Positions 1-55,654 of a DNA stretch of 64,000 nucleotides are shown one piece after another. The stretch is from Eledone cirrhosa (Eukaryota): positions 4,464,001-4,528,000 of the forward strand of contig OZ024752.1 of NCBI GenBank assembly GCA_964016885.1, written 5' to 3'. How positions within the stretch are numbered: the first letter of the stretch is position 1; every line of letters begins with the position of its first letter. Both the position numbers and the translations under genes were made by a program. The notes under the pieces were generated by a model that saw only the letters and a program-made list of their open reading frames with translations, was not told the DNA's origin and searched no databases.

Positions 1-1212
1 CCCTGGATCCTCACAAAGATGACACAAAAGGCATAGAATATTCAACCCTGAAGGCACTGCTCCAGTATGACCTTGGCCAAAAGCAATAAAACAACCTAAA
101 GAATACATACATATATATACACATACATACATACATACATACATACATGCATGTATACATACCTAGATATATACATACATACATATGCTAACCCATGCTA
201 GCGTGGAAGATGGACGTTAAACGATGATGATGATGATGATATGCATATACATATATATACATACGTATATACATATATACATACATATACATATTGCTTA
301 CATACATATATACATGCATGCATATATACACACACATACACACATTTATAAATTTCCATAAATTCATATGTATAATGAACACAAATATCTATATTAATGT
401 ATTTATGTTTACCCAGATGCATTTGCATATTTACATGTAAATATATCTATGTACACACTTAAAGGCATGTTTATATATATATATTATATATATATAAATA
501 TCTATGTACACACATATAGGCACATACATACATGTGTATATATTATATATATATATAAATATCTATAAAAAAAAAAAAATTAAAAAGAAAATTATCTATG
601 TACACACATATAGACACATACATACATGTGTATATATATATTAATATATCCATGTACACACTTACATGCTAACACACACGTGTATGTACATTAATATATC
701 TATGTACACATATACATACCCACATACGGACCCACCTCCCCTCCCCTACACATGTATACATAGTCAGGCATGTCGTGTATACACACACAAACTAGTTTTT
801 GTTGTTTAGCACCATGATAGCTCTGTAATTCAAGGCATTCCAGCTGTGACCATTCCATTACTACATTGTTCAGTGTATCTTCCCATTTATATGAAGGTAG
901 TGTGTGATTTGGAGTGAGGAAATTAGGGTTGCTGTTTCTAGCAGGTTGAATGATTGCAGAGAAGGCTCCTCATTGGCTTAATGCAAACAAGTAAATAGAT
1001 ATTCTTGCTGGCTAAACATTCTCCATTCACTTTATTCATTAAACCCCCAGCTCACTGTCATATACAGTTCACACACTCACACATGCACACATATATATAT
1101 ATATATGCATATATATATACACACACACACATGCATATATATATATATATACACACACTCTAACATACAAATGTATGAACAATGTATAAATACGTGTGTG
1201 GAAGGAGGGTTA

Positions 1213-1253
<41 letters not shown>

Positions 1254-1683
1254 ATGCGTGTTTATAGTGTTCAGGAACCATTGAGAGAATTTGGCAAGCG
1301 GCAGAAAACTGAATGCCTCTTGGCATCATTGAAATTGTCTGCATGCCAAAATGGATGTTAAAACCAGGCTGCATTCAACACCGGATAAGCTGATCCTTAG
1401 TAAGGAAACAAAACAGGATTTTCACAGTTTACTATTATGGTAGTGAAAGCTTAGAGGAAGGAGAGAAAGGAGAGTAAGGGTGGAAGGGAGTGGTGGAGAA
1501 ATAGGGGGAGATGGATAGAGAAGTGTAGGGGATGGAGAGCAAGGTGGAAAGTAATATAAAGGGATAGAAGAGAGAAAAGGGAGAGATATGAGAAGCAGAG
1601 AAATTAGTTTTGAAATTGTGAATAAAGGGGATGAATGTTTGTATGTTTGTATATTTGTATGTATATCTTTATAAGTGTGTGTG

Positions 1684-1723
<40 letters not shown>

Positions 1724-2029
1724 CACACACACACATTTTTTTATATCTGTGTGTGAATATGCGTGTGTAAACACACGCACGTGCACACGCGCTCACTAAA
1801 GTAAATGTACATGTTTAGCCTTTTGTTCAATGCTATTGTATATTATATTTATAGAATTTTTTTAGCCAACATTGTATACAATAAAGAAATAAACACCTTG
1901 TCTTTAAATACAATATCTTCATGAAGAGGAAATGGTAAGCTGAAGTAAATTCAATCTTGTGTTGGAGTTTCATCTGCATCTATGTACCTCTTTGAATTAT
2001 CTGTAGATATATACTGTAGTACAGTTGGA

Positions 2030-2315
2030 CGGCACTCTGTCGGTTATCATAACAAGTGTTCCAGTTGATTCGAAATTAATGTGCTCATGAAATTAACGTG
2101 TAAGTGGCTGAGCATTCCATAGATACACGTACCCTTAACGTACTTCTCAGGGAGATTCAGCATGACACAAAATGTACAATTCATTTTTGCCAGCTCAGTG
2201 GATTGGAACAACGTGAAATAAAGTGTCTTGCTCAAGGACATGACACGCCATCAGGAATCAACTCTCCCTTATGATTGTAAGCCAAATACCCTAACCACAA
2301 AGACACATGCCTTCA
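2030..2315 (-). mobile_element. tRNA-derived CORE-like SINE, tail type 1
   Basis: A/B-box-like head plus gtccttgagcaagacactttatttcac core; tail ..ccctgagaagtacgttaagggtac.. Confidence 0.75.
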
Positions 2316-3521
2316 CCGTAATACAGTTAATGCACCAGTAATTCCCTTTTGTCTGTATCATCCTAATTATATCAGCTTTTCTATGATTGTATGGGTTGGC
2401 TGAGTCCTCTCCAAAACAATATCTTACTATTTGTTATGTTCAGGTTTCACAGATCAGCTTTATCTACTTTTTGCCTTCATCTTTTTTGGCCAGCCACATA
2501 TATGGCTTCCTTCCATCCAGAGCTCCTGGCACATCTTGGCCAACTGTCAATACAAGTCCATATCAGCACAGTTATCTCTCTTGTACACAACATCTGGCTT
2601 CTTTTATGTCCAGTTTTTTCCTCAACTCATCTGTGTTTTGTCATTCATATTTTCTAACATAACACATGCAGCAGAGAAGGCTTGCTTGCTTGCTTCCTTT
2701 ATTTCCAGCCATCATCTTTTGCAGTTGAGGCCCATTTTTGCTGGCATGCATCTTTACATTACATACACAAACATCATGCAATCTCCCTTTTGATAGAAGA
2801 GAGAACCCCTTTATTACTAATAGAAGTAAAAGCACTCTGATCTTTTGGATAGCCCAAATGGTGTTGAAGTTTATTGAAATTGATGAACCAATAGTAACTT
2901 AGTTACACACACCAATAAACTATATATAAAAATAATCAAGACTCTAGAGGGATTTAGTAAATATACTTTAGTTGTTGAAGTGACGTCTGATCGAGTATCC
3001 TATATGTTAGTGTGATATCGATGAATGTTACTGCTGTTTCTAGTAGGCCCAATGACATATGTTAGTGATATCAGTGGTTCCTACTGCTGTTTCCAACAGA
3101 CCCAGTGACATATGTTACATCCGTGGATGTAACTGCTATTTCTAGCAGGTCCAGTGATATATGTTAGTGTAATATCAGTGAATGTAACTGCTGTTTCTAG
3201 CAGATCCATTTACCATGTAGAGACTCCCTCACAGGCTTGAAAAGAGACTAGTGGGTGTAATTTTTTTTGTCAAAAAATAGTTCTTGTGAGCATTTGTTAT
3301 GTCTAGCTGAGTTGAGATGGAAGTCTATTACTCTTGAGTGTGTGTTTATCTTATGATTAAGTTTGGGGTGGTGTGTCTGGGTGTGTATTGTATTGTCAGA
3401 GCTGAGGTGAGTTAAGATTGAAACTCATTGAAGTATATCTGTCTCTATATGTATCTCTGTCTATGTATGTGTGTATATGTGCGTGTATGTGTGTATATTT
3501 GTGTGTGTAAGCATACATGCA

Positions 3522-38837: not shown

Positions 38838-38880
<43 letters not shown>

Positions 38881-38885
<5 letters not shown>

Positions 38886-39083
38886 AACGAGTAGGACCCC
38901 GACGGCTGAGCTCAAGCCGTTTCGACGGCTAATTCTGGACTAGAATTAGTCCAGAATTAGCCGTCGAAACGGCTTGAGCTCAGCCGTCGGGGTCCTATTC
39001 GTTCCTATCACCCACTCTACTACCCTAAGTATTGAGTACTTTGGTGCGTTATGGTCCATCTGGTTCCTTACCACATTTCCTTC

Positions 39084-39086
<3 letters not shown>
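38881..39086. mobile_element. Penelope-like fold-back element (about 60-bp near-perfect inverted arms) in (TA)n
   Basis: 38881-38942 is the reverse complement of 38947-39008; contains GAAAcggct..agccGTC. Confidence 0.7.
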
Positions 39087-39121
<35 letters not shown>

Positions 39122-39186
39122 AACACATATATATACATATATATATACATACATATACATGTGTGTGTGTGTGTGTGTGTATATAT

Positions 39187-39492
39187 CTAGGGCGGGTAAA
39201 ATTTCCGAGATCCATGGACGAGTTCTCTCCAGCGGTCTCTGTCCCTCATTATCGCTGCCATATCCTGCATCTCCAACAGACCAGTGTCTGTCATTAGGGC
39301 ATCAACATACGTTAACCTTGGTCTTCCTCTTCCTGTGTGTGTGTAGGGGCTCCCAAAGGAGCACTGAGTGCAATGTCAACTCTGGATGTCGGTGAGCATG
39401 TCCAGCTAACCTCAGTCTCCTCTGTGTCACTTTTGAGCTGACTTTTGGGAGGCTCCCATACAGCTCTGAGTTTTTCATCCTCAGTGTATACT
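39187..39492 (-). pseudogene. RTE family C 3' fragment
   Basis: Reverse complement of 40035-40350 with an internal deletion. Confidence 0.85.
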
Positions 39493-39494
39493 GA

Positions 39495-39925
<431 letters not shown>

Positions 39926-39926
<1 letters not shown>

Positions 39927-40351
39927 CTGTAGTGGAGTCTGTGCTGCTGTATGGGTCTGAGACTTGGACACTGACCAAGAGACTCACTCAGATGGTGGAT
40001 GGGTGCTACACGAGAATGCTGAGGATGGCTCTGAACATTAATCAGTATACACTGAGGATGAAAAACTCAGAGCTGTATGGGAGCATCCCAAAAGTCAGCT
40101 CAAAAGTGACACAGAGAAGACTGAGGTTGGCTGGACATGCTCACCGACATCCAGAGTTGACATTGCACTCAGTGCTCCTTTGGGAGCCCCTACATGGACA
40201 CACTAGAAGAGGAAGACCAAGGTTAACATATGTTGATGCCCTAAGGACAGACACTGGTCTGTTGGAGATGCAGGATATGGCAGCGATAATGAGGGACAGA
40301 GACCGCTGGAGAGAACTCGTCCATGGATCTCGGGAATTTTACCCGCCTTAG
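39926..40351 (+). pseudogene. RTE family C 3' fragment
   Basis: [30 protein letters not shown] motifs. Confidence 0.9.
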
Positions 40352-40493
40352 ATAGATAGATATATATATACTTATATATATATATATATACTTATATATA
40401 TATATATATATACTTATATATATATATATATATACTTATATATATATATATATATACTTATATATATATATATACTTATATATATATATACTT

Positions 40494-49156: not shown

Positions 49157-49431
49157 AACGGGTGGGATTGGTAATATCGGTAGAGGGTCGGACGCCATGC
49201 TTTCCAACATAGTTACGTCCCTTTACGATCTGAGTTCAAATCCCGCCGAGGTTGACTTTGCCTTTCATCCTTACGGGGTTGATAAAATAAAGTACTAGTA
49301 ATGCACTAGGTAATTGCTGGCCTTGTGCCTAAAGTAGAAACAATTATCTGTAACTCCCCCCTCCCCCCACCGCCAGCAATTATCCCAGTACATTACTGGT
49401 ACTTTATTTTATCGACCCCCGTAAGGATGAA
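49157..49431. mobile_element. Meta-like SINE (+, TSD attatctgtaactccccccct) and inverted fragment 49371-49431
   Basis: TSD at 49136-49156 and 49343-49363. Confidence 0.85.
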
Positions 49432-49458
49432 ATATATATATATATATATATATATAAC

Positions 49459-49554
49459 AAGTATGACCCCGACGGCAGAGCTCAAGCCGTTTCGACGGCT
49501 ATTTCTGGACTAGCCGTCGAAACGGCTTGAGCTCTGCCATCGGGGGTCATACTT
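49459..49554. mobile_element. Second fold-back copy of the same family
   Basis: Palindrome aagtatgaccccgacggcagagctc..gagctctgccatcgggggtcatactt, flanked by (TA)n. Confidence 0.7.
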
Positions 49555-49616
<62 letters not shown>

Positions 49617-54323: not shown

Positions 54324-54666
54324 ATAGGAACGAGTAGGACCCCGACGGCTGAGCTCAAGCCGTTTCGACAGCTAATTCTGAGTCCAGAATTAGCCGTCAA
54401 AACGGCTTGAGCTCAGCCGTCGGGGTCCTACTCGTTCCTATTACCCACTCTACTACCCTAAGTATTGAGTACTTTGGTGCGTTATGGTCCACCTGGTTTC
54501 TTACCACATTTACTTCGTTACACGTGCTTTCCACCACATATTTACACCCTCAGCCTCCTGACCCCCCCCCCTCTATCCACACACGCACAGACACTCCGAC
54601 CCCCCCCACACACACACACACCTCTTCCTGAACATGCAACCCCGTTCTTCCCCCAACCCTTACTTT

Positions 54667-54699
<33 letters not shown>

Positions 54700-55070
54700 C
54701 ACCTTCAGCCCTCCCCGCTCGGACACCCCGTCTCCCTCTCCCCACTCCACCCGCCACCACCCCTACACACCCCACACCCTTCCACCACCTGTTTACCCCC
54801 CTTTTAATTTCAGTTTATTTTGATCATGCTTTATTTTTAAATTTATCTTTATTTTTTATTTTTTCATTCGCACCGTTTCCTTTCGCTATATGTCTCTCCA
54901 CCACTCCCCTACACACCCTTTGAACTCTGTTCCCACACACTTCCCACCTGAGGAAGGGTTTATGCCCGAAACGTCATCCCCCACCAACACCCCACTCTCC
55001 AGAGCGTGAAATTAATAAACATTCGTTGTACTGCCTCTCTGTTTTGTCCCTGTTCAAATTTTTCCATCCT
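54324..55070 (+). mobile_element. Longest copy of the Penelope-like non-autonomous element (5' fold-back, C-rich body, 3' hammerhead-like motif, AATAAA)
   Basis: First 190 bp match 38881-39086; (TA)n on both sides. Confidence 0.65.
54948..54976 (+). ncRNA. Minimal hammerhead-like core, stem I not evident
   Basis: CTGAGGA-aggg tttatg ccc-GAAA-CGTC, the layout of Penelope pLTR minimal hammerheads; AATAAA at about 55014. Confidence 0.55.
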
Positions 55071-55231
55071 ATATATATATATATATATATATGTAAAGTT
55101 ATATTTAAAATTGTTGGGTTACAACTAGTAAATATTTATAACTGATATAAAAGCACTCGACAAATACTTGGAGTATATTTACAATATTAAATAAATGGAA
55201 AACTATAAATATAGTTTTCCATTTATTTAAT

Positions 55232-55280
<49 letters not shown>

Positions 55281-55654
55281 TGATGTGTGTGTGTGTGTAT
55301 ACATGCACACAAATGCAAATGTGAGTGTGCATATGGCCATATGTATATGTGTGTATATATATATATGACCATTTTCTATGCTGGCAGTGGGTGGATATGG
55401 AGAGGTCATTATGGACAAAATCTGAACTCAATCAGTGCTACTGTCTCTCTAGACAAATTGGGAGACCATGTCTTCCGTATATGCTCCATATATATGTACA
55501 CACATACACACACATACATATATCAGGATTAAACCAGTTAGATCATTATTCAACCAAGTACTCGTTACTTGGGATGGTAGTGACTTTTTCTAATATATAT
55601 ATATATATCATAATTCTTGTACTCATATTTGTTTTGGCATTAATACACTGTTTG

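What the first reader, a model, noticed from the sequence alone, without database searches (positions are those of the whole stretch)
38881..39086. Palindromic insertions that fold back at a hammerhead stem II (three copies: 38881, 49459, 54324)
Seen: each copy is a near-perfect palindrome in (TA)n. The arm reads GAAA-cggct(tgagctc)agcc-GTC-ggggtcct, i.e. the 3' half of a type I hammerhead (GAAA, stem III, GUC site, stem I strand). The CUGANGA half is replaced by the mirror image. In all three the turn lies inside the hairpin gacggctag-tccagaa-ttagccgtc immediately 5' of GAAA, which is the predicted stem II, but at slightly different points. Known: Penelope-like elements carry hammerheads in their pLTRs and often have inverted pLTRs. 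Inference: nascent cDNA snaps back on the ribozyme stem II and self-primes second-strand synthesis, so the ribozyme doubles as a primer and generates hairpin insertions in microsatellites.
Basis: partly seen in the sequence, partly recalled or inferred. Interest (0 to 1): 0.8.

Follow-up and report, generated by a model that had tools for sequence, protein, structure and literature searches.

The report
Penelope stubs stop at RNA starts
These three palindromes are among many thousands of stub insertions of a ribozyme-bearing Penelope-type jumping gene, and their mirror halves stop at one fixed point that likely marks the capped start of the element's RNA (a minority stop at the ribozyme's predicted cut site), which would make the open question of how these elements insert directly testable.

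Summary
The three palindromes are real. They belong to a large family: 11,360 + 2,651 exact-arm palindromes and 40,993 tail hits in this genome. The family is the end (pLTR) of a Hydra-type Penelope-like element with an intact RT + GIY-YIG ORF and a type I hammerhead whose core is UUGANAA (U3-A8), not CUGANGA. Arms instead stop at a sharp wall (+1, an initiator-like YAGT in loop II): 62 of 97 sampled copies reach -5..+5 and none ends at -16..-61. A non-genomic C:G pair often sits at the wall (265 vs 51 A:T), as expected if a cap is copied. About 430 palindromes turn at the predicted ribozyme cut instead. Best reading (0.68): both ends of a nicked (TA)n site prime cDNA at two internal start sites (+61, +140), both run off the RNA 5' end, and the ends are joined. 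No RNA data were available. The inverted-pLTR-plus-tail layout is published, and this scan noted start-site-adjacent and cut-site palindromes before on other DNA.

The parts
38881..38942 (-). Copy 1, short inverted arm (element positions +61 to -1; +1 = A of the initiator-like YAGT)
38943..38946 (.). Copy 1, 4-nt non-native spacer at the turn
38947..39008 (+). Copy 1, forward arm (-1 to +61): inferred RNA 5' end at 38948, stem II 3' strand, GAAA 38966-38969, stem III, GUC 38986-38988 (predicted cut after 38988), stem I 3' strand, inferred RT start site 1 at 39008
   Evidence: RNA start and RT start are inferred
39009..39087 (+). Copy 1, one-sided tail (+62 to +140). In full elements it runs on into the ORF leader. 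Its end is inferred RT start site 2
38850..38883 (.). (TA)n target, left of copy 1
39086..39117 (.). (TA)n target, right of copy 1
49456..49512 (-). Copy 2, left arm (reaches +1/-1), sister subfamily with an AAATAG stem II strand
49511..49562 (+). Copy 2, right arm from +11, joined through a 2-nt TA overlap; no tail; (TA)n on both sides.
54324..54380 (-). Copy 3, short inverted arm (+61 to +5); (TA)n on its left
54381..54441 (+). Copy 3, forward arm starting exactly at +1; GUC 54419-54421
54442..54520 (+). Copy 3, one-sided tail, followed by a different repeat rather than (TA)n

Best explanation
The palindromes are stub insertions of a Hydra-type Penelope-like retrotransposon, likely made when both ends of a nicked (TA)n site prime reverse transcription at two internal start sites near the 5' end of the element's RNA, both copies likely run off its likely capped start inside hammerhead loop II, and the two ends are likely joined head to head. 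Shown: family, ORF linkage, hammerhead fold with compensatory changes, fixed outer ends (+61, +140), the wall at +1, the excess of a non-genomic C:G pair at the wall, and a second class turning at the predicted cut (G42). Inferred: +1 is a Pol II start and the extra C is copied from the cap; twin priming and end joining; the G42 class comes from self-cleaved read-through RNA; starting inside the ribozyme would leave the mRNA's 5' copy as an inactive half-ribozyme that keeps its cap, while the 3' copy is complete.
For: Wall: 24,332 hits from +4, 3,170 from -9, 3,241 for the core at about -47..-28. So about 87% are lost within 13 nt and none further over the next 40. In 97 tail-anchored copies, 62 reach -5..+5, 3 reach -6..-15, 0 end at -16..-61, 8 read through and 24 stop earlier. 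A sister family has a different loop and fold but the same YTAGT, and the same wall (420 palindromes). Cap-like base: with both arms at +1 and one base between them, C:G 265 vs A:T 51. 24 of 30 such loci carry subfamily tags other than the one with C at -1; among 44 read-through copies C at -1 is confined to that tag (4 of 4) and the other 40 have T. Base between a +1 arm and a +2 arm: C 87, T 7, G 6 of 100 listed. C 61, G 26, T 13 of 100. At the cut site an extra C is seen in 3 of 17 spaced junctions vs 25 of 50 at +1 (p=0.024). Twin priming: the inverted arm ends at +61 in 64 of 79; both start sites read UAU, which can pair with a (TA)n end; the extra G lies on the tail arm in 19 and on the short arm in 11 of 30; 0-1 nt loops are common (14 of 50 share one 1-nt junction in the sister family); two internal RT starts bounding the tail, with both strands extended, were shown in vitro for a Poseidon PLE (PMC11167929). 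Cut class: 21 of 50 listed of 1,033 (about 430) turn at G42 +/-1 with 0-6 foreign bases in all but one (16 bases); 19 of 20 fetched have one tail by pattern, and the 20th has a tail with a deletion.
Against: No RNA evidence for a start, cap or cleavage. In the sister family the +1/+2 test gave C 2, T 2, G 4 of 8, so the C excess was not reproduced there (the 4 G can be read as C after the +2 arm). Some extra-C junctions could arise by joining at +5 or +15 and slipping back on AG or GTC; such realigned forms exist (2 AGCC and 1 GGCC among 58 loci). The TATA-like word at -29 is not conserved, and I saw no DPE by recalled consensus. Arms are the same subfamily in 49 of 58 (14.0 expected), which fits one RNA used twice but fits a single folded cDNA equally. 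Only 1 of 30 ORF-bearing copies begins at +1 (L197); 25 extend upstream and 4 start downstream, so long copies need another template or a jump. Asymmetric arms could be later deletions: 24 of 50 are stem III collapses.
Confidence: 0.68

Rival explanations
1. Same RNA 5' end, but one cDNA primed at +140 folds back on itself there and copies back to +61, where it anneals to the (TA)n end.
For: Arms share subfamily sites in 49 of 58. Several common junctions have 1-4 nt of local self-complementarity. A TAT at +59..61 could pair with the target.
Against: 0-1 nt loops cannot be primed by fold-back. The extra G is on the short arm in 11 of 30. Copies whose tail arm starts beyond +61 while the other arm spans +3..+7 to +51/+61 (L123, L133, L156) need two primings unless deleted later. 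One locus has arms with different subfamily tags (L252).
Confidence: 0.14
2. The wall is an RT stall or processing point (RNA structure, bound protein, nuclease or splice site) inside a longer RNA, not a transcription start.
For: In family A the +1 region is predicted to pair in a distal helix of stem II. YAG at -1..+2 resembles a splice acceptor (recalled consensus). No RNA data exclude this.
Against: In the sister family the same word is predicted unpaired yet the wall is unchanged. No constant foreign exon or leader appears at the turns. A stall does not explain the C:G excess.
Confidence: 0.1
3. Self-priming on an antisense transcript makes the palindrome, as proposed for Adineta Penelope elements (PMC3846280).
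For: It is the published reading of palindromes at PLE inverted junctions.
Against: The walls coincide with two predicted 5' ends of the sense RNA (an initiator-like word and the hammerhead cut), and the extra base has the polarity of a sense-strand cap.
Confidence: 0.04
4. One reading: nascent cDNA snaps back on ribozyme stem II and self-primes.
For: Turns lie within the stem II/loop II region.
Against: Predicted junction 0 genome-wide for the commonest loop variant. 0 of 50 listed long-spacer palindromes hold the native loop. 0 of 97 copies end at -16..-61. One locus outside that sample reaches about -28 on one arm only (L080).
Confidence: 0.02
5. An ordinary DNA MITE, or one palindromic master copy amplified as a unit.
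For: Terminal inverted arms, TA target, and recurring identical junctions.
Against: Junctions are highly varied across listed loci, the tail is one-sided, and the arms are the pLTR of an RT + GIY-YIG element.
Confidence: 0.02

Closest known systems
Hydra-clade Penelope-like elements (Craig et al. 2021, PMC8557442; seen: passages, section 11, supplement part 2 of 59)
   Same: C-terminal GIY-YIG; RW[KR], DKT, CxCx5C linker, CxxC and CxH motifs; (TA)n targeting; hammerhead near the 3' end; inverted 5'-truncated copy plus optional tail.
   Different: Unit about 3.5 kb vs usually <3 kb. Tail 79 nt vs 30-40 nt. The Hydra hammerheads listed in File S2 have CUGA-type cores, loop II of 10 nt or less and short stem III; this one has U3-A8, a loop of about 37 nt and a 5-6 bp stem III. 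No turn-point hot spot is described in what I read.
Poseidon PAc of Anolis, internal RT initiation (Frangieh et al. 2024, PMC11167929; seen: parts 1-2 of 4)
   Same: Two internal RT start sites bounding the tail, downstream of the hammerhead; both target strands cut and extended; AT-rich target.
   Different: Different clade; its ORF starts in stem II. The parts I read do not treat inverted junctions or the RNA 5' end, and found no RNA reads ending at the cut site, whereas here about 430 insertions end there.
Palindromes at inverted pLTR junctions of Adineta Penelope elements (Arkhipova et al. 2013, PMC3846280; seen: passages and Discussion)
   Same: Head-to-head inverted pLTR, palindromic junction, one-sided tail, Inr-like word in the pLTR.
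   Different: Few copies, read as self-priming on an antisense template. Here the junctions map to predicted 5' ends of the sense RNA.
D. virilis Penelope promoter (Schostak et al. 2008, PMC2377424; seen: passages)
   Same: Transcript starts inside the upstream pLTR from a TATA-less promoter with an Inr.
   Different: Its start lies 46 bp before an intron whose end maps at hammerhead helix I (PMC4209133), so upstream of the ribozyme. Here the inferred start is inside loop II.
PLE hammerheads with U3-A8 core (Cervera and de la Pena 2014, PMC4209133; Perreault et al. 2011, PMC3088659; seen: passages, plus Discussion of the first)
   Same: The U3-A8 covariation is a known natural variant, active in vitro, and is seen in Schistosoma PLEs.
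   Different: Those metazoan PLE motifs are minimal and in vivo cleavage was unshown. This one has full stems and a genomic footprint at the predicted cut.
Retroviral/LTR minus-strand strong-stop DNA and LINE-1 twin priming (recalled, no call)
   Same: Short cDNA from an internal primer site to the capped 5' end; two primings giving an inversion.
   Different: The primer is target DNA, both cDNAs start at fixed sites, and no strand-transfer scar was found.

Membership tests
EN+ Penelope-like element | Single ORF with RT and GIY-YIG endonuclease linked to the repeat | tested here: met
   719-aa ORF from +232 in L062 with YRDD and VIY...YIG. Many copies with open frames of about 784 aa. The ORF itself has no Pfam hit; close homologues hit GIY-YIG below the curated stretch level.
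EN+ Penelope-like element | pLTR/partial tandem, inverted 5'-truncated copy, one-sided tail | tested here: met
   L061, L062; 25 of 30 ORF copies have upstream pLTR sequence; tandem units about 3.53 kb; tail on one arm.
Hydra clade | RWK-like, DKT, CxCx5C linker, CxxC and CxH; no GxKF/Y and no CX2-5CxxC | tested here: met
   RWR 37, DKT 117, CxCx5C 572, CxxC 670, CxH 698; GxK[FY] and CX2-5CxxC absent.
Hydra clade | Insertion into (TA)n | tested here: met
   Tail followed by (TA)3 in 95 of 97.
Hydra clade | Placement in an RT phylogeny with named Hydra families | not tested
Hydra clade | Generally short (<3 kb) | tested here: not met
   Tandem period about 3.53 kb because of a 3' UTR of about 1.2 kb. 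This is a described tendency, not a strict criterion.
Neptune/Nematis clades | CX2-5CxxC linker | tested here: not met
Type I hammerhead ribozyme | Three-way junction with conserved core (3-8 pair, G5, A6, GAAA, UH) | tested here: met
   The MFE fold is the junction (z only -0.46). U3-A8 in 16 of 17 rows, 89.8% of cells paired, three stem II pairs changed on both sides between families (rows are related and 11 were picked with core patterns, so not independent). No hammerhead among the 150 listed of 252 Rfam hits in the window, which holds only half-ribozymes of this family.
Type I hammerhead ribozyme | Self-cleavage 3' of GUC | not testable with these tools
   Indirect only: insertions ending at G42.
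Pol II core promoter at +1 | Capped transcripts starting at an initiator | tested here: inconclusive
   YYAGT conserved across two families and a C:G excess; no RNA run was listed. The Inr consensus is recalled.
MITE / DNA transposon | Fixed structure between TIRs; transposase partner | tested here: not met
   Variable centres, one-sided tail, retroelement partner.
Non-LTR retrozyme | Non-coding tandem units each with a full hammerhead | tested here: not met
   Stubs lack the 5' half, and the tandem units carry the ORF.

The most novel reading that the evidence does not exclude
This Penelope-like element transcribes from inside its own ribozyme. The mRNA is then capped at a half-ribozyme and ended by the complete one, which defines a 41-nt terminal repeat like a retroviral R region. 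Reverse transcription starts near the 5' end and makes a strong-stop DNA that normally jumps to the RNA's 3' end to build the partial tandems typical of PLEs, and the thousands of palindromes are failed jumps. For: the wall, the cap-like base, the cut-site class, and one locus where a copy ending exactly at +1 continues in 3' UTR sequence (L100). Against: no cap scar in read-through copies (G 6 in 3 loci vs A 6; insertions 0), and circular or read-through RNA explains long copies equally well.
Probability: 0.25. Interest if true: 0.85.

Novelty: new variant of a known kind. Interest (0 to 1): 0.6.

Why it matters
How Penelope-like elements make their inverted ends, where their RNA begins, and whether their hammerheads cut in vivo are stated as open in the papers read (PMC3846280, PMC4209133, PMC11167929). 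Here thousands of insertions act as a fossil primer-extension experiment. They give two fixed starts (+61, +140) and two fixed stops (+1 with a cap-like extra base, and the predicted ribozyme cut), all single-base predictions that one RACE/CAGE run and one in vitro assay can test. A start inside loop II would also explain how an mRNA can carry a ribozyme at both ends and still be translated; a plant retrozyme transcript that starts upstream of its hammerhead is cleaved and untranslatable (PMC12029980, section 2.1). The insertions themselves are dead stubs of a known kind.

Tried and rejected
True stem II snap-back junction: 0 (commonest loop variant only). Neptune assignment (my first guess, in note 1): dropped. 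TATA box at -29: not conserved, dropped. Splice or trans-splice acceptor at the wall: no constant foreign sequence. Cap scar in read-through copies: not found. Sister-family extra-base test: 8 loci, uninformative. RNA: no RNA holder listed; contigs of runs X1 and X4 cannot show starts. Pfam and PDB searches with the ORF: nothing significant. Rfam on the window: microsatellite-driven miRNA-type hits among the 150 listed, none at gathering score. Look-alike search of earlier findings by sequence: none. Fold z-scores are weak (-0.46 whole ribozyme, -1.81 stem II), so folding energy is not used as evidence. In one search two of the five measures did not beat shuffles (264/500 and 500/500). The tallies are by eye from the first 100 listed rows, mostly C1. 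The 97-copy sample is the first 100 tail hits on C1 minus rows 98-100. The 58 palindromes are mostly tail-anchored, so the 53 of 58 'short + tail' count is biased; loci L001-L030 were left out as biased to the query.

Full report
Observation. The three palindromes are present: 38881-39008 with a tail to 39087, 49456-49562, and 54324-54441 with a tail to 54520. Each arm holds the 3' half of a hammerhead. They belong to a very large family in this 3.0-Gb genome: 24,332 exact hits of an arm 23-mer, 40,993 of a tail word, 11,360 palindromes with up to 30 nt between the inner arm words and 2,651 with 31-60 nt, with reversed-pattern controls of 0. I number positions from the A of AGTCCAGAA as +1 (window 38948 and 54381).

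The source element. Non-inverted copies were found among the first 30 hits. Upstream of the arm they read acccc-TTGA(G/T)AA-G(A/C)TCGGCTA, then a loop of about 37 nt (3,241 hits). The region folds as a three-way junction. Across 17 aligned copies of two sister families, 89.8% of cells pair, three stem II pairs change on both sides, and U3-A8 holds in 16 (the rows are related and most were picked with core patterns). U3-A8 is a known natural variant that is active in vitro (PMC3088659, passages) and was seen in Schistosoma PLEs (PMC4209133, passages). In L062 the tail runs on into a 719-aa ORF starting at +232, with RT and C-terminal GIY-YIG motifs, followed by a 3' UTR and another copy of the ribozyme. 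Many copies with open frames of about 784 aa and 3.53-kb tandems exist. The motifs RWR, DKT, CxCx5C, CxxC and CxH, and the absence of GxKF/Y and CX2-5CxxC, match the Hydra clade as defined in PMC8557442 section 11. No tree was built.

The hairpin taken for stem II is created by the inversion in copy 2. A snap-back on the real stem II would leave the native loop between the arms. That junction has 0 hits, and none of the 50 listed long-spacer palindromes contains the loop; their spacers are A/T runs or re-copied arm pieces, and native sequence extends at most to about -6.

The wall. Hits fall from 24,332 at +4 to 3,170 at -9 and stay at 3,241 for the core. Of 97 tail-anchored copies (first 100 on C1 minus the last three), 62 reach -5..+5, 3 reach -6..-15, none ends at -16..-61, 8 read through and 24 stop 3' of +5. 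The inverted arm ends at +61 in 64 of 79, and the tail is followed by (TA)n in 95 of 97. A sister family has a different loop sequence and a different distal helix, in which the same YTAGT word is predicted unpaired, and it shows the same wall (420 palindromes). The word fits the recalled initiator consensus. The TATA-like word at -29 is not conserved. PLE transcripts are known to start within the pLTR (PMC2377424 passages; PMC8557442 passage).

A cap-like extra base. RTs often add a C opposite a 5' cap (recalled; search gave no paper to cite). Where both arms reach +1 with one base between them, it is C:G in 265 loci and A:T in 51. The native -1 base is T in 40 of 44 read-through copies and C only under one subfamily tag, and 24 of 30 fetched C:G loci do not carry that tag. 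Between a +1 arm and a +2 arm the base is C in 87, T in 7 and G in 6 of 100 listed. One search gives C 61, G 26, T 13. Against: the sister family gave C 2, T 2, G 4 of 8, and slippage from +5 or +15 could make some of these forms (realigned AGCC/GGCC spacers in 3 of 58 loci).

A second stop at the ribozyme cut. Of 1,033 palindromes turning near GUC, the 50 listed are: 21 turning at G42 +/-1 with foreign or no spacer, 24 stem III collapses, 4 with one arm at +42 and the other at +39, and 1 other. That scales to about 430. Twenty fetched examples have the same +61 and tail ends (19 by pattern, 1 with a deletion in the tail). An extra C is rarer there (3 of 17 vs 25 of 50; p=0.024; the C run makes this count soft), as expected for an uncapped end. 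This is indirect evidence of cleavage in vivo, which PMC4209133 (Discussion) and PMC11167929 did not have.

Mechanism. Both strands of a stub begin with antisense sequence attached to (TA)n, one at +61 and one at +140, and both sites read UAU. PMC11167929 (parts 1-2 of 4) showed two internal RT starts bounding the tail and extension of both target strands. I infer twin priming, run-off at the RNA 5' end, and end joining with trimming or added bases. The extra G lies on either arm (19 tail, 11 short of 30), and 0-1 nt loops are common; a single folding strand explains neither. Arms match in subfamily in 49 of 58 vs 14.0 expected, so one RNA or one source locus serves both; this does not separate the models. 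Long copies mostly extend upstream of +1 (25 of 30; one starts at it, four downstream) and need read-through or circular RNA, or a jump to the 3' pLTR. A test for a jump scar was negative; one locus shows a +1 end continuing in 3' UTR sequence (L100).

What is known. Inverted pLTR plus tail, junction palindromes (read as antisense self-priming, PMC3846280), pLTR hammerheads and Hydra elements in (TA)n are all published. Searches of the open library found no report of arms stopping at a capped start inside loop II or at the cut site; subscription journals, Repbase/Dfam notes and bioRxiv supplements were not visible and may bear on this. Of bioRxiv 10.64898/2026.07.22.740005 I read part 1 of 5, and of PMC12029980 the abstract and section 2.1. 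The Hydra hammerheads tabulated in the PMC8557442 supplement (part 2 of 59) have CUGA cores and short loops. Earlier notes of this scan report start-site-adjacent palindromes in other genomes and a cut-site palindrome in this one; they are unchecked leads, not support.

Verdict. Interest 0.6, because single-base, high-count predictions make the PLE insertion mechanism and in vivo ribozyme cleavage testable, but no RNA has been seen.

Noticed in passing
window 54521-55075: A different C-rich repeat abuts copy 3's tail and ends in (TA)n. It contains a minimal hammerhead-like motif (CTGAGGA...GAAAC) at 54948-54975, possibly the end of another Penelope-like family.
   Followed up: no
window 39086-40452: Next to copy 1, two inverted arms (88-96% complementary) flank an AT microsatellite. 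They translate as the C-terminal end of a LINE-type RT (RTE-like; label recalled).
   Followed up: partly
window 55531-55580 (-): 74% match over 50 nt to the tail (E 0.003), next to a TA run; perhaps the tail of a more distant sister family.
   Followed up: no
window about 49170-49435: A SINE-like dispersed repeat (by eye; label recalled) lies just left of copy 2's TA tract.
   Followed up: no
L100:470-1549: A tail arm ending exactly at +1 continues into 3' UTR sequence (-794..-681, same strand) and then a long inverted copy: looks like a template jump after run-off.
   Followed up: partly
L197: An ORF-bearing copy whose 5' end lies at -3/+1, with a short inverted arm: a full-length copy ending at the wall.
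   Followed up: partly
G000:C1:437.20-437.21 Mb, C1:91.47-91.49 Mb, C2:320.55 Mb, C2:51.28 Mb: Head-to-tail arrays of 3-5 whole elements with a period of about 3.53 kb and open ORFs; the family looks recently active.
   Followed up: no
L032, L063:7186-7316: Two copies of an older subfamily have C3 with A8 (a mismatch at the 3-8 pair), so their ribozyme may be impaired.
   Followed up: no
junctions listed: Many turns contain runs of up to about 20 non-native A or T, suggesting terminal-transferase activity at the cDNA end.
   Followed up: no
L062 tail (+56..+150); window 39009-39087: The tail is predicted to hold a hairpin around AAGTA...TACTT, shared by the sister family; a candidate RT-binding signal.
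   Followed up: partly
L252: One palindrome whose two arms carry different subfamily tags, hinting at two RNA templates.
   Followed up: no
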